Source of the DNA: Escherichia coli
Lineage (GTDB): Bacteria; Pseudomonadota; Gammaproteobacteria; Enterobacterales; Enterobacteriaceae
Assembly: GCF_017348835.2 (NCBI RefSeq)
Contig: NZ_CP071375.1
Strand: one strand, 5' to 3'
DNA length: 64,000 bases
The notes beneath the pieces were generated by a model, which saw only the letters and a list, made by a program, of their open reading frames with translations, was not told where the DNA came from and did not search any database. A program made the translations under genes and the position numbers. Position 1 is the first letter of the stretch. Each line of letters opens with the position of its first letter. Of the stretch, positions 12,806 through 15,190 are shown piece by piece.

Positions 12806-13396
12806 ATGTTACAAAACCCAATTCATCTGCGTCTGGAGCGCCTGGAAAGCTGGCAGCATGTCACTTTCATGGCTTGCTTATGCGAACGCATGTACCCCAA
12901 TTACGCCATGTTCTGCCAGCAAACCGGTTTTGGTGATGGGCAAATTTACCGTCGTATTCTCGATCTCATCTGGGAAACGCTGACCGTTAAAGACGCAAAA
13001 GTAAATTTCGACAGCCAACTGGAGAAATTTGAAGAAGCGATTCCTTCAGCCGACGATTTCGATCTGTACGGCGTTTATCCGGCAATCGATGCCTGCGTGG
13101 CGTTAAGTGAACTGGTCCATTCGCGTTTGAGTGGTGAAACGCTCGAACACGCGGTGGAAGTGAGTAAGACCTCCATCACGACCGTTGCGATGCTGGAAAT
13201 GACTCAGGCTGGTCGCGAAATGAGCGATGAAGAGCTCAAAGAAAACCCAGCTGTAGAGCAAGAATGGGACATTCAGTGGGAAATATTCCGACTTTTAGCT
13301 GAGTGCGAAGAACGTGATATCGAGCTGATAAAAGGCCTTAGGGCAGACCTGCGTGAGGCGGGTGAGAGCAATATTGGTATAATTTTTCAGCAATAA
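12806..13396 (+). CDS. yjaG: DUF416-family protein
   Basis: 196-aa ORF at the conserved position between nfi and hupA. Confidence 0.85.
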   Translation: MLQNPIHLRLERLESWQHVTFMACLCERMYPNYAMFCQQTGFGDGQIYRRILDLIWETLTVKDAKVNFDSQLEKFEEAIPSADDFDLYGVYPAIDACVALSELVHSRLSGETLEHAVEVSKTSITTVAMLEMTQAGREMSDEELKENPAVEQEWDIQWEIFRLLAECEERDIELIKGLRADLREAGESNIGIIFQQ

Positions 13397-13582
13397 GACC
13401 AGAAAACGTGATTTAACGCCTGATTTGTCGTACCTGGAGTCTTCCCTTTCGCCCCCCGTCTGGTCTACATTTGGGGGGCGAAAAAAAGTGGCTATCGGTG
13501 CGTGTATGCAGGAGAGTGCTATTCTGGCATTTCCGTCGCACTCGATGCTTAGCAAGCGATAAACACATTGTAAGGATAACTT

Positions 13583-13855
13583 ATGAACAAGACTCAACTG
13601 ATTGATGTAATTGCAGAGAAAGCAGAACTGTCCAAAACCCAGGCTAAAGCTGCTCTGGAGTCCACTCTGGCTGCAATTACTGAGTCTCTGAAAGAAGGCG
13701 ATGCTGTACAACTGGTTGGTTTCGGTACCTTCAAAGTGAACCACCGCGCTGAGCGTACTGGCCGCAACCCGCAGACCGGTAAAGAAATCAAAATTGCCGC
13801 AGCTAACGTACCGGCATTTGTTTCTGGCAAGGCACTGAAAGACGCAGTTAAGTAA
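13583..13855 (+). CDS. hupA: Nucleoid protein HU alpha subunit
   Basis: 90-aa [29 protein letters not shown]...; strong RBS. Confidence 0.97.
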
Positions 13856-13861
13856 GATTGC

Positions 13862-14563
13862 GTGGCAGTGAACAGTTTTAACGAAGGGGTGGTTTCACCC
13901 CTTTTGTCTTTCTGGCGTCGATCATTGATGCTGGCCGGCGCTCTGTTTCTCACTGCCTGTAGTCACAACTCTTCACTTCCTCCCTTTACCGCCAGTGGAT
14001 TTGCTGAAGACCAGGGCGCAGTACGTATCTGGCGAAAAGACAGCGGCGATAATGTGCATCTGCTTGCCGTGTTTAGCCCGTGGCGCAGTGGCGATACCAC
14101 GACGCGAGAGTATCGCTGGCAGGGCGATAACCTCACGCTCATCAATATCAATGTTTACAGCAAACCGCCGGTGAACATTCGCGCGCGTTTTGACGATCGC
14201 GGCGATCTGAGCTTTATGCAACGTGAATCCGATGGGGAAAAGCAGCAGCTTTCTAACGATCAAATCGATTTATACCGTTATCGTGCTGATCAGATCCGCC
14301 AGATTAGCGATGCCTTACGTCAGGGGAGAGTCGTGCTGCGCCAGGGGCGCTGGCATGCGATGGAACAGACCGTGACCACCTGCGAAGGGCAAACCATTAA
14401 ACCTGATTTAGATTCGCAGGCGATAGCGCATATCGAGCGCCGCCAGAGCCGCTCTTCTGTTGATGTCAGCGTGGCATGGCTGGAAGCGCCCGAAGGTTCG
14501 CAATTACTGTTGGTGGCAAACTCTGATTTCTGTCGCTGGCAACCCAACGAGAAAACGTTCTGA
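13862..14563 (+). CDS. yjaH: Putative lipoprotein (DUF1481-type); start codon uncertain
   Basis: ORF open from 13862, but the hupA terminator lies inside it. The internal ATG at 13928 precedes a lipobox-like LMLAGALFLTAC, so the real start may be 13928. Confidence 0.8.
   Translation: MAVNSFNEGVVSPLLSFWRRSLMLAGALFLTACSHNSSLPPFTASGFAEDQGAVRIWRKDSGDNVHLLAVFSPWRSGDTTTREYRWQGDNLTLININVYSKPPVNIRARFDDRGDLSFMQRESDGEKQQLSNDQIDLYRYRADQIRQISDALRQGRVVLRQGRWHAMEQTVTTCEGQTIKPDLDSQAIAHIERRQSRSSVDVSVAWLEAPEGSQLLLVANSDFCRWQPNEKTF
13885..13906 (+). terminator. Rho-independent terminator after hupA
   Basis: aggggtg-gtttc-cacccct hairpin followed by TTTT. Confidence 0.8.
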
Positions 14564-14564
14564 T

Positions 14565-14984
14565 TTACCAGTGGCCCATACCCATATGACCGCCACCACC
14601 GCAGCCGCCGTAACCCATTCCGGTACCGCGCGGAATACCCGCTTCAGCCATCGCAATATCTCGTTTCACCCGTAACTCATCTAACGACTGACGCAAATTC
14701 TCCATCTCTTTGGCGACCGCGTTAATTTTGCTGCTATCCGGTGGGTTCGCGGCTAACAGGGCATTGTATTCATAACGCTTCGTCACCAGTTGCTGTTGCA
14801 GTGCGCTGCTTTGAGCGTAAAAGTCATTATGGATTTTCTGCCACGCTGTCTGTTGTTCGCTGGTCAAAGGCGCGGCATTTTGCTGCCACATACCGTGTCC
14901 GCCGTGAGCAAATGCAGATGTCGATCCCATCGCCATTGCTGAAAGCGCCATCATTACCAGGGCAATTTTCGTGTTCCGTTTCAT
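14565..14984 (-). CDS. zraP: Periplasmic zinc-resistance-associated chaperone
   Basis: Start taken at MKRNTKIALVMMALSAMA (signal peptide); Gly/His-rich C-terminus GGCGGGGHMGMGHW. Confidence 0.9.
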   Translation of the reverse strand: MKRNTKIALVMMALSAMAMGSTSAFAHGGHGMWQQNAAPLTSEQQTAWQKIHNDFYAQSSALQQQLVTKRYEYNALLAANPPDSSKINAVAKEMENLRQSLDELRVKRDIAMAEAGIPRGTGMGYGGCGGGGHMGMGHW

Positions 14985-15019
14985 GGTTAATCCTCCAGTG
15001 GTTGTCTTACTTCGGGTAT

Positions 15020-15190
15020 TGCATTTTCCGTGCCAACGGTGAAACGCTGATATGACGGGCAATCTGGCGTGATAGGCGAGTAAAAATGACTCGCCTGCTG
15101 CGGGTGGCGAGTCATTTTTACTCATTGAAACTTAAGTCTTTGTGTTACAGCGCAGGGTAAGCGCTGATAAAAGATGGCATGATTTCTGCT
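15020..15190. promoter_or_regulatory. Divergent sigma-54-type promoters for zraP and zraSR
   Basis: Minus strand TGGCACGGAAAATGCA at 15020-15035; plus strand TGGCATGATTTCTGCT at 15175-15190. Both show GG-N10-GC spacing. Confidence 0.55.

What the first reader, a model, noticed from the sequence alone, without database searches (positions are those of the whole stretch)
13862..13928. hupA terminator lies inside the longest yjaH ORF
The longest ORF for yjaH starts 7 nt after the hupA stop and contains the hupA terminator hairpin. An internal ATG at 13928 sits directly before a lipoprotein-type signal (LMLAGALFLTAC), so the real product is probably a shorter lipoprotein.
Basis: seen in the sequence. 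Interest (0 to 1): 0.2.

Follow-up and report, generated by a model that had tools for sequence, protein, structure and literature searches.

The report
hupA terminator inside yjaH start
The transcription terminator of the E. coli HU-alpha gene really does sit inside the first 15 codons of the annotated neighbouring lipoprotein gene yjaH, but the short form starting at the internal ATG is very unlikely; this is a gene-start question, not a new system.

Summary
hupA ends at 13855. The longest yjaH ORF starts at GTG 13862, and RefSeq uses GTG 13868. A GC-rich hairpin (13883-13904) with a T tract lies in codons 8-17. ATG 13928 is in-frame codon 23.

The hairpin is a working terminator. It pairs in 98.5% of cells across 65 distinct sequences, with compensatory changes. 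Published Term-seq places a very abundant, Rho-independent RNA 3' end at window 13907.

YjaH is almost certainly a lipoprotein: the lipobox Cys33 is conserved. The ATG 13928 start is not supported:
- It occurs in only 14 of 80 Enterobacteriaceae.
- It would leave a 10-residue, uncharged signal peptide.
- Codons 16-20 upstream of it (Ser, Trp, Arg) show protein-level conservation.

A start codon just after the hupA stop (GTG 13862 and/or 13868) is present in 80/80 species. The other canonical option, TTG 13904 in the T tract, is lost in 8/80.

Best reading (about 60%): translation starts before the hairpin, probably coupled to hupA termination, on read-through transcripts. The mature protein is the same whichever start is used. 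Low novelty.

The parts
13583..13855 (+). hupA (HU-alpha) CDS; stop TAA at 13853-13855
   Evidence: ORF list; RefSeq annotation
13842..13863 (+). Predicted hairpin. It pairs hupA codons 86-89 with the spacer and the first two bases of GTG 13862; the hupA stop codon is in the loop.
   Evidence: -11.2 kcal/mol, z = -3.3. Comparable folds occur in 39 distinct Enterobacteriaceae sequences (mean -8.8 kcal/mol). No clean covariation, so this is a prediction only.
13862..13864 (+). GTG, first possible yjaH start (233-aa precursor)
   Evidence: GTG or ATG in 75 of 80 Enterobacteriaceae. It is lost only where the second GTG is kept.
13868..13870 (+). GTG, the RefSeq/K-12 annotated yjaH start (231-aa precursor)
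   Evidence: Annotation. GTG in 75 of 80. It is lost only where the first start is kept.
13883..13904 (+). hupA intrinsic terminator hairpin (9-bp stem, 4-nt loop), lying in yjaH codons 8-15
   Evidence: Scan; fold; pair counts with compensatory changes
13902..13912 (+). Interrupted T tract TTTTGTCTTTC of the terminator. The in vivo RNA 3' end is at 13907.
   Evidence: Term-seq 3' end at K-12 4200605: not Rho-dependent, intrinsic terminator score 5.76. Coordinate mapping checked.
13904..13906 (+). TTG, alternative start at the 3' foot of the hairpin. It would give MSFWRRSLMLAGALFLTAC, a 19-residue canonical lipoprotein signal.
   Evidence: Passes the lipoprotein rule in 72 of 72 species that have it. 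It is TCG in 8 of 80 species.
13913..13921 (+). Codons Trp18-Arg19-Arg20: the positively charged n-region of the signal peptide
   Evidence: Trp in 72 of 73 and Arg19 in 70 of 73, with synonymous CGT/CGC variation
13928..13930 (+). Judged not to be the functional start.
   Evidence: Present in 14 of 80. Fails the signal-peptide rule. Lies in local hairpin 13912-13934.
13949..13960 (+). Lipobox L-T-A-C; Cys33 (13958-13960) is the predicted lipidated first residue of the mature protein
   Evidence: Ala32 and Cys33 invariant, Leu30 in 70 of 73, Thr/Ser31. The +2 residue is Ser, not Asp.
13958..14563 (+). Mature YjaH (201 aa, DUF1481) plus stop TGA 14561-14563
   Evidence: Pfam PF07356, E = 9.4e-73, over residues 44-229. 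AlphaFold2 model with pLDDT 95.6.

Best explanation
The hairpin at 13883-13904 with its T tract is the working Rho-independent terminator of the highly expressed hupA gene. yjaH follows so closely that there is no room for a promoter or leader after the terminator. The gene can therefore only be transcribed through the terminator. This could be read-through from the hupA promoter, or from a start site inside hupA.

YjaH is made as a prolipoprotein. Its signal peptide ends at the lipobox LTA|C (Cys33). Translation most likely begins at GTG 13862 and/or GTG 13868, 7-13 nt after the hupA stop. The 231-233-aa precursor then really is read through the terminator hairpin, and the RefSeq start is essentially right.

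These GTGs have almost no Shine-Dalgarno sequence and are predicted to pair with the last hupA codons. Initiation is therefore probably coupled to ribosomes finishing hupA (termination-reinitiation or unmasking). Elongating ribosomes then melt the hairpin. Signal peptidase II removes everything before Cys33, so the mature outer-membrane-type lipoprotein (Ser at +2) is the same whichever start is used.

Shown: the terminator, its in vivo 3' end, lipobox conservation, and the start-codon census. Inferred: which codon is used, the coupling, and expression by read-through.
For: **Terminator**
- Scan and fold.
- 98.5% pairing with compensatory CG<->UA and GC<->UG/UA/AU changes.
- Term-seq 3' end at window 13907: 102,752 reads in LB at OD 0.4, also 27,872 and 14,561 in the two other growth-condition datasets; Rho score 0.74 (not Rho); intrinsic terminator score 5.76.

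**Start before the hairpin**
- An in-frame ATG/GTG at position 1 or 2 is present in 80 of 80 Enterobacteriaceae. Each position is lost in 5 species, never both.
- The hupA-stop-to-GTG spacer varies in length (5-7 nt) and sequence. From the GTG onward there is a single indel, of 3 nt.
- In 9 of 10 lineage representatives (Escherichia, Atlantibacter, Dickeya, Proteus, Edwardsiella and unnamed taxa) the yjaH frame has a pre-hairpin start with an open frame through the hairpin. Each of the other two frames has this in 1 of 10 (Fisher p = 3.5e-5).
- L094 has only a pre-hairpin start. Eight Enterobacteriaceae have TCG instead of the T-tract TTG, yet keep an intact, conserved gene.

**Coupling**
- All E. 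coli candidate starts score poorly as stand-alone initiation sites (+11 to +22 kcal/mol, against -2.8 for hupA).
- The GTGs lie 7 and 13 nt from the hupA stop, in a predicted stem with hupA codons 86-89.

**Lipoprotein**
- Lipobox conservation. Canonical lipoprotein signals in distant homologues.
Against: - No experimental start-site data for yjaH were found. Supplements of three start-mapping papers and one Salmonella study hold nothing.
- Codons 3-6, 9 and 13-15 are invariant even at third positions. The open frame there may partly be a by-product of RNA-level constraint rather than of translation. A clean coding signature begins only at codon 16.
- The long precursors fail the 'K/R in the first 7 residues' heuristic in 136 of 150 cases. 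The TTG 13904 form passes in 72 of 72.
- In two distant lineages (L091, L096) an in-frame stop makes a pre-hairpin start impossible, so starts at or after the hairpin do exist in this family.
- NCBI itself annotates some Atlantibacter orthologues from the T-tract TTG (219 aa).
Confidence: 0.6

Rival explanations
1. Translation starts at TTG 13904, the first codon after the 3' arm of the terminator hairpin. This gives a textbook 19-residue lipoprotein signal, MSFWRRSLMLAGALFLTA|C. The terminator would then be 5' UTR, and the 14 codons upstream would be an annotation artefact kept open by RNA-level constraint.
For: - This form passes the PROSITE-type rule (Cys19, Arg5/6) in 72 of 72 species that carry the TTG.
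- The coding signature is only clear from codon 16.
- Distant homologues with an unambiguous start have 17-21-residue signals beginning M-[KR].
- L096 starts at an ATG 18 nt after the hairpin and L091 must start within or after it.
- PGAP picks this codon in some Atlantibacter genomes.
Against: - The TTG is TCG in 8 of 80 Enterobacteriaceae, in two clades (the Citrobacter amalonaticus group and Kluyvera). These species have no other start upstream of the conserved Arg and still keep an intact gene.
- The same TTTTG is part of the terminator in Pantoea, where yjaH starts about 95 nt further on. Its conservation therefore need not reflect a start codon.
- The codon abuts a -14.5 kcal/mol hairpin that also buries the only G-rich Shine-Dalgarno-like stretch. 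Unfolding costs about 19 kcal/mol.
Confidence: 0.27
2. One reading: translation starts at ATG 13928, giving a 211-aa precursor whose signal peptide is MLAGALFLTA|C.
For: - It is the only ATG before the lipobox, and lies downstream of the terminator.
- Some metagenome gene calls use it (P0005, 211 aa, 50 member sequences).
- Its crude initiation score is no worse than the others (+11.5).
Against: - It is present in 14 of 80 species. Four species have no start-capable codon there at all.
- The signal would be 10 residues with no charge, failing the rule as all 161 'after' candidates do.
- Ser16, Trp18 and Arg19 upstream show protein-level conservation.
- No Shine-Dalgarno sequence, and it sits inside a -9.8 kcal/mol hairpin.
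Confidence: 0.04
3. More than one start is used (GTG 13862/13868 and TTG 13904). All precursors give the same mature lipoprotein, so the start site is free to drift between lineages.
For: - Start options turn over across the family: pre-hairpin only (L094), loop ATG (L089-L092), T-tract TTG, and post-terminator ATG (L096, L087).
- The cleavage site is identical in all forms.
Against: No direct evidence. It is not distinguishable from the single-start models with sequence data alone.
Confidence: 0.09

Closest known systems
Rho-independent (intrinsic) transcription terminators of E. coli
   Same: A GC-rich 9-bp stem with a tetraloop and a U-rich tail. The in vivo 3' end lies 3 nt past the stem and is insensitive to the Rho inhibitor bicyclomycin.
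   Different: It lies within the annotated coding sequence of the next gene rather than in an intergenic region. The U tract is interrupted (UUUUGUCUUUC), which fits partial read-through. Read-through was not measured here.
Translational coupling / termination-reinitiation between adjacent genes (textbook cases such as trpE-trpD and trpB-trpA, cited from general knowledge)
   Same: The downstream start lies 7-13 nt from the upstream stop, with a weak or absent Shine-Dalgarno sequence. The start region is predicted to pair with the end of the upstream ORF.
   Different: A strong terminator sits between the start codon and the body of the downstream gene. Only the minority of transcripts that read through could yield protein. 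Dependence on hupA translation is untested.
Bacterial lipoprotein signal peptides (Sec/SPase II, lipobox; PROSITE PROKAR_LIPOPROTEIN rule)
   Same: A conserved lipobox L-[TS]-A-C, a hydrophobic h-region and Arg residues before it. The +2 residue is Ser, which implies the outer-membrane sorting default.
   Different: If the annotated start is used, the n-region is unusually long (about 20 residues), contains a Glu, and has its Arg residues at positions 17-20 rather than in the first 7.
Ribosome-controlled attenuators (trp and his leaders)
   Same: A ribosome translating into the 5' arm of a terminator hairpin could in principle prevent termination.
   Different: There is no alternative antiterminator hairpin, no regulatory codons and no separate leader peptide. 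The translated ORF is the structural gene itself.

Membership tests
Intrinsic terminator | GC-rich stem-loop directly followed by a U-rich tract | tested here: met
   9-bp stem (5 G-C pairs), 4-nt loop, T tract; -14.5 kcal/mol, z = -3.5
Intrinsic terminator | Structure conserved, with compensatory substitutions | tested here: met
   98.5% of cells paired; 14 cells with double changes against 2.6 in shuffles; slid controls 50-80%
Intrinsic terminator | RNA 3' end in the U tract in vivo, independent of Rho | tested here: met
   Published Term-seq and bicyclomycin data (PMC7815308): 3' end at window 13907, Rho score 0.74 ('No'), intrinsic score 5.76
Bacterial lipoprotein (SPase II substrate) | Lipobox [LVI][ASTVI][GAS]C after a hydrophobic stretch | tested here: met
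   LTAC at codons 30-33. Ala32 and Cys33 are invariant in 73 sequences, and the pattern matches.
Bacterial lipoprotein (SPase II substrate) | Cys at residue 15-35 and K/R within the first 7 residues (PROSITE-type rule) | tested here: inconclusive
   The result depends on the start. The GTG forms have Cys31/33 but no K/R in the first 7. The TTG 13904 form passes both tests. The ATG 13928 form fails both.
Bacterial lipoprotein (SPase II substrate) | Lipid modification and globomycin-sensitive processing | not testable with these tools
   Needs palmitate labelling or globomycin treatment
Translationally coupled gene pair | Downstream start within a few nt of the upstream stop, with a weak own ribosome-binding site | tested here: met
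   7 and 13 nt from the stop. Best Shine-Dalgarno pairing is -1.2 kcal/mol and total score is +11 to +13 kcal/mol.
Translationally coupled gene pair | Downstream translation depends on upstream translation | not testable with these tools
   Needs a premature hupA stop codon combined with a yjaH reporter
DUF1481 (Pfam PF07356) | Match to the family profile above the gathering score | tested here: met
   244.4 bits against a cut-off of 25, over residues 44-229
Twin-arginine (Tat) signal peptide | Conserved S/T-R-R-x-F-L-K motif | tested here: not met
   The second Arg is His, Gly, Gln or Ser in 23 of 73 sequences

The most novel reading that the evidence does not exclude
Embedding the hupA terminator in the first codons of yjaH may be a conserved expression device across Enterobacterales rather than an accident. 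Ribosomes that finish hupA would reinitiate at the adjacent GTG and translate into the 5' arm of the hairpin. They could suppress termination on the same transcript, or at least be the only way to open the hairpin. This would tie synthesis of the YjaH lipoprotein to a fixed small fraction of HU-alpha synthesis.

The Pantoea arrangement would be a variant of the same device. There, a 36-codon ORF runs from just after the hupA stop, through the terminator, to an ATGA overlap with the yjaH start.
Probability: 0.12. Interest if true: 0.5.

Novelty: new member of a known kind. Interest (0 to 1): 0.25.

Why it matters
The main value is for annotation.
- It shows that the 'ORF-internal' Term-seq 3' end listed for yjaH is simply the hupA terminator. 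It missed the 'primary' class only because it lies 52 nt from the stop, against a 50-nt cut-off.
- It argues against shortening yjaH to the internal ATG.
- It shows that start calls for this family are inconsistent between genomes: 233 or 219 aa in Atlantibacter, and 215, 217, 220 or 221 aa in Edwardsiella.

More generally, this is a clean, conserved example of a strong intrinsic terminator overlapping the translation start region of the next gene. It could serve as a simple test bed for how read-through, ribosome reinitiation and hairpin melting set the output of a downstream gene. The mature protein does not depend on the answer, so the physiological stakes are small.

Tried and rejected
- **Start-site data for yjaH.** I looked in the supplements of TetRP (PMC4909307), TRAINSPOTTER (PMC13245402), Giess et al. 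(PMC5576327) and the Salmonella riboproteogenomics paper (PMC11005335). None mentions the gene.
- **Papers not available.** No supplementary files are held for the Ribo-RET preprint or for Conway 2014. The journal version of the Ribo-RET paper and the Thomason 2015 TSS paper are not held at all.
- **Full-text searches.** Searches for 'yjaH' and 'DUF1481' gave only gene lists.
- **Promoter scan.** It found nothing in 13300-14700, but it also missed the hupA promoter, so it is uninformative.
- **Initiation-energy model.** A crude RBS-calculator-like model did not separate the candidate starts. All were poor.
- **Tat signal (WRR).** Rejected, because the second Arg is not conserved.
- **Stop-codon read-through fusion.** hupA and yjaH share a frame in E. 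coli, but the spacer is 5 or 7 nt in many genera, so this was rejected.
- **Covariation in the hupA-stop hairpin (13842-13863).** The outer pairs are invariant and the inner pair is mostly mismatched, so the test is inconclusive.
- **Rfam.** No match.
- **Solved structures.** No relative by sequence and no specific fold match.

Full report
**What is in the sequence.** The window is Escherichia coli. The 1.1 kb around the finding is 100% identical to two pig isolates and is present in 5,425 of 5,426 complete genomes.
- hupA occupies 13583-13855 (stop TAA 13853-13855).
- The next ORF on the same strand opens at GTG 13862 and ends at 14563 (233 aa).
- RefSeq/PGAP and the K-12 record (b4001) start yjaH at the second GTG, 13868 (231 aa).
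- A terminator-like site lies at 13883-13904: a 9-bp stem and 4-nt loop followed by TGTCTTTCTG. It folds at -14.5 kcal/mol, z = -3.5. It covers codons 8-15, with the T tract running into codon 17.
- ATG 13928 is in-frame codon 23.
- The lipobox LTAC is codons 30-33, with Cys33 at 13958-13960.
- Residues 44-229 match Pfam DUF1481 (E = 9.4e-73).

**The hairpin is a real, active terminator.** The consensus scan alone is not above chance: 1 site against 1.6 expected. Two independent lines settle the matter.

The first is conservation. In 65 distinct sequences from Enterobacteriaceae and more distant Enterobacterales, the nine pairs are formed in 98.5% of cells. Controls with the partner slid by 1-3 columns give 50-80%. 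Compensatory changes occur at the two inner pairs (C:G to U:A; G:C to U:G, U:A or A:U).

The second is published Term-seq for MG1655 (Adams et al. 2021, PMC7815308). It lists a 3' end at 4200605(+) with an average of 102,752 reads in LB at OD 0.4, and 27,872 and 14,561 in the two other growth-condition datasets. The site has a Rho score of 0.74 ('No') and an intrinsic-terminator score of 5.76 against a threshold of 3. That coordinate is window 13907, the U after CACCCCUUUUG.

The paper files this end as 'internal' to yjaH, 39 nt from the annotated start. It lies 52 nt from the hupA stop and their 'primary' class stops at 50 nt. Their filter kept this end, which implies that a mapped transcription start lies within 200 nt upstream, that is, inside hupA or the spacer. 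I could not see that start site itself.

**YjaH is a lipoprotein.** Ala32 and Cys33 are invariant, Leu30 is Leu in 70 of 73, and residue 31 is Thr or Ser in 73 distinct Enterobacteriaceae sequences. The +2 residue is Ser or Gly, never Asp. Homologues at 25-45% identity carry LAGC, LSAC or LSGC lipoboxes after a short M-[KR]-hydrophobic signal.

**The ATG 13928 start does not stand.** Eighty orthologous loci were fetched from one genome per species, and 79 could be scored; with the window this gives 80 sequences.
- The codon is ATG in only 14. It is otherwise ACG, GCG, TGG or GTG. Four species have no ATG/GTG/TTG anywhere between the T tract and the Cys.
- A start there leaves 10 residues before the Cys and no Lys/Arg. 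None of 161 'after the T tract' candidates passes a PROSITE-type rule (pattern, Cys at 15-35, K/R in the first 7).
- Upstream codons show a protein-level signature. Ser16 is TCT/TCC/TCA, Trp18 is invariant, and Arg19 is CGT/CGC in 70 of 73. The start must therefore be at or before codon 15.
- In E. coli the ATG has no Shine-Dalgarno sequence and is paired in a -9.8 kcal/mol hairpin at 13912-13934.

**Which upstream codon?** Two candidates remain: the GTGs at 13862/13868, before the hairpin, and TTG 13904, at its 3' foot.

The census favours the former. A start at position 1 or 2 is present in 80 of 80. Position 1 is lost in five loci (two Salmonella enterica subspecies and three Leclercia, where it is GTA). 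Position 2 is lost in five others (GCG or GTA). Both are never lost together. The TTG is TCG in eight species from two clades, which nevertheless keep an intact, well-conserved gene and have no other start upstream of the conserved Arg.

The spacer between the hupA stop and the first GTG varies in length (5-7 nt) and sequence. From the GTG to the Cys there is only one indel before the Trp-Arg codons (3 nt, in the loop) and one other, also in-frame, in the hydrophobic core.

The nfi-yjaG-hupA-yjaH-purD neighbourhood is conserved in more distant lineages: Atlantibacter, Dickeya, Proteus, Edwardsiella and unnamed taxa. There the terminator again abuts or overlaps the 5' end of yjaH. In 9 of 10 lineage representatives the yjaH frame has a pre-hairpin start with an open frame through the hairpin. 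Each of the other frames has this in 1 of 10 (Fisher p = 3.5e-5). L094 has only a pre-hairpin GTG.

**Evidence on the other side.**
- Codons 3-6, 9 and 13-15 are invariant even at third positions. A similar AGTTTTAA motif occurs in Pantoea and Dickeya in a different frame. The open frame before the hairpin is thus partly explained by RNA-level constraint.
- The TTG form gives the most canonical signal (MSFWRRS..., passing in 72 of 72). The long forms fail the 'K/R in the first 7' heuristic in 136 of 150 cases.
- L091 and L096 have an in-frame stop before or within the hairpin and must start in the loop or after it. L096 uses an ATG 18 nt after the stem, giving MIKRGL....
- In L089-L092 an ATG sits in the hairpin loop with the G-rich 5' arm as a Shine-Dalgarno look-alike.
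- NCBI annotations disagree between genomes: 233 or 219 aa in Atlantibacter, and 221, 220, 217 or 215 aa in Edwardsiella.

The start has evidently moved during evolution. That is easy to understand, because every precursor is cut at the same Cys.

**Mechanism, with steps marked.**
- *Shown:* a strong terminator ends most hupA transcripts at 13907, and yjaH has no room for its own promoter after it.
- *Inferred:* yjaH is expressed from transcripts that pass the terminator.
- *Inferred:* initiation at GTG 13862/13868 is coupled to hupA translation. All candidate starts score poorly as independent sites (+11 to +22 kcal/mol against -2.8 for hupA). The GTGs lie 7 and 13 nt from the stop. They are predicted to pair with hupA codons 86-89 (-11.2 kcal/mol, z = -3.3 in E. 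coli; mean -8.8 over 39 distinct sequences), a structure that a terminating ribosome would open. A ribosome sitting on the hupA stop would not reach the terminator hairpin, which begins 28 nt after the last base of the stop. TTG 13904 would stay buried.
- *Speculative:* reinitiating ribosomes reduce termination. The time window looks short, and I give this low probability.

I put the pre-hairpin start at about 60%, TTG 13904 at about 27%, mixed use at about 9%, and ATG 13928 at about 4%.

**Comparison with known systems and novelty.** Every element is of a known kind: an intrinsic terminator, a lipoprotein signal, and a closely spaced, probably coupled gene pair. What is slightly unusual is a strong terminator inside the 5' end of the next gene's coding sequence, conserved across an order. 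No paper found here discusses it. I rate it a new member of a known kind, of low interest.

Noticed in passing
L087:1384-1503 (Pantoea sp. IMH type): Here the hupA terminator is followed by about 95 nt before the yjaH ATG. A 36-codon ORF starts at a GTG 10 nt after the hupA stop, runs through the terminator, and ends in a TGA that overlaps the yjaH ATG (ATGA). It may be a coupling uORF. Its conservation in other Erwiniaceae was not tested.
   Followed up: partly
window 13868-13880: GTGAACAGTTTTA is invariant, including third codon positions, in 73 distinct Enterobacteriaceae sequences. Real coding positions nearby vary freely. A similar AGTTTTAA motif precedes the terminator in Pantoea and Dickeya in another frame. 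This points to an RNA-level constraint of unknown function.
   Followed up: partly
L089:1190-1215, L090:1190-1215, L091:1190-1230, L092:1190-1215: In Edwardsiella and three unnamed lineages an in-frame ATG lies in the loop of the hupA terminator. The G-rich 5' arm lies 2-5 nt upstream, like a Shine-Dalgarno sequence. The hairpin would then hide both the ribosome-binding site and the start.
   Followed up: partly
window 13842-13863: A predicted hairpin (-11.2 kcal/mol, z = -3.3) has the hupA stop codon in its loop and the first yjaH GTG in its 3' arm. Comparable folds occur in other Enterobacteriaceae, but without clean covariation.
   Followed up: partly
window 13912-13934: A local hairpin (-9.8 kcal/mol; 0 of 200 shuffles fold as well) pairs the Trp-Arg-Arg codons with TTG 13925 and ATG 13928. 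Its conservation was not tested.
   Followed up: no
window 13583-14563: hupA and the yjaH ORF are in the same reading frame in E. coli, separated only by TAA GAT TGC. One ENA contig has a 300-aa protein call (P0002) carrying both HU and DUF1481 domains. This is probably a stop-codon variant or a sequencing error. The shared frame is not conserved in genera with 5- or 7-nt spacers.
   Followed up: no
window 13907 (K-12 4200605): The Term-seq paper classes the hupA terminator 3' end as 'internal' to yjaH. It lies 52 nt from the hupA stop, just past their 50-nt 'primary' limit. Its retention in their table implies a mapped TSS within 200 nt upstream, inside hupA or the spacer.
   Followed up: partly
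window 13958-14560: Mature YjaH (DUF1481) gives a very confident AlphaFold2 model (pLDDT 95.6): a long antiparallel beta-meander followed by helices and a small sheet. It has no specific match among solved structures. One source names an orthologue 'putative VirB-like lipoprotein'.
   Followed up: partly
window 14561-14567 and 14565-15125: The yjaH stop (14563) and the convergent zraP stop (14565) are 1 nt apart. ExcludonFinder lists yjaH-zraP among its RNA-seq-detected excludon gene pairs. The annotated zraP start differs by 6 nt between K-12 and strain PE164. The longest ORF there is 186 aa, against about 140 aa annotated.
   Followed up: no
L013 (CACSKA010000020.1): The record is titled Chryseobacterium sp. 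18061 but carries a typical Enterobacteriaceae hupA-yjaH locus at 79% identity to E. coli YjaH. This is probably a mislabelled or contaminated assembly.
   Followed up: no
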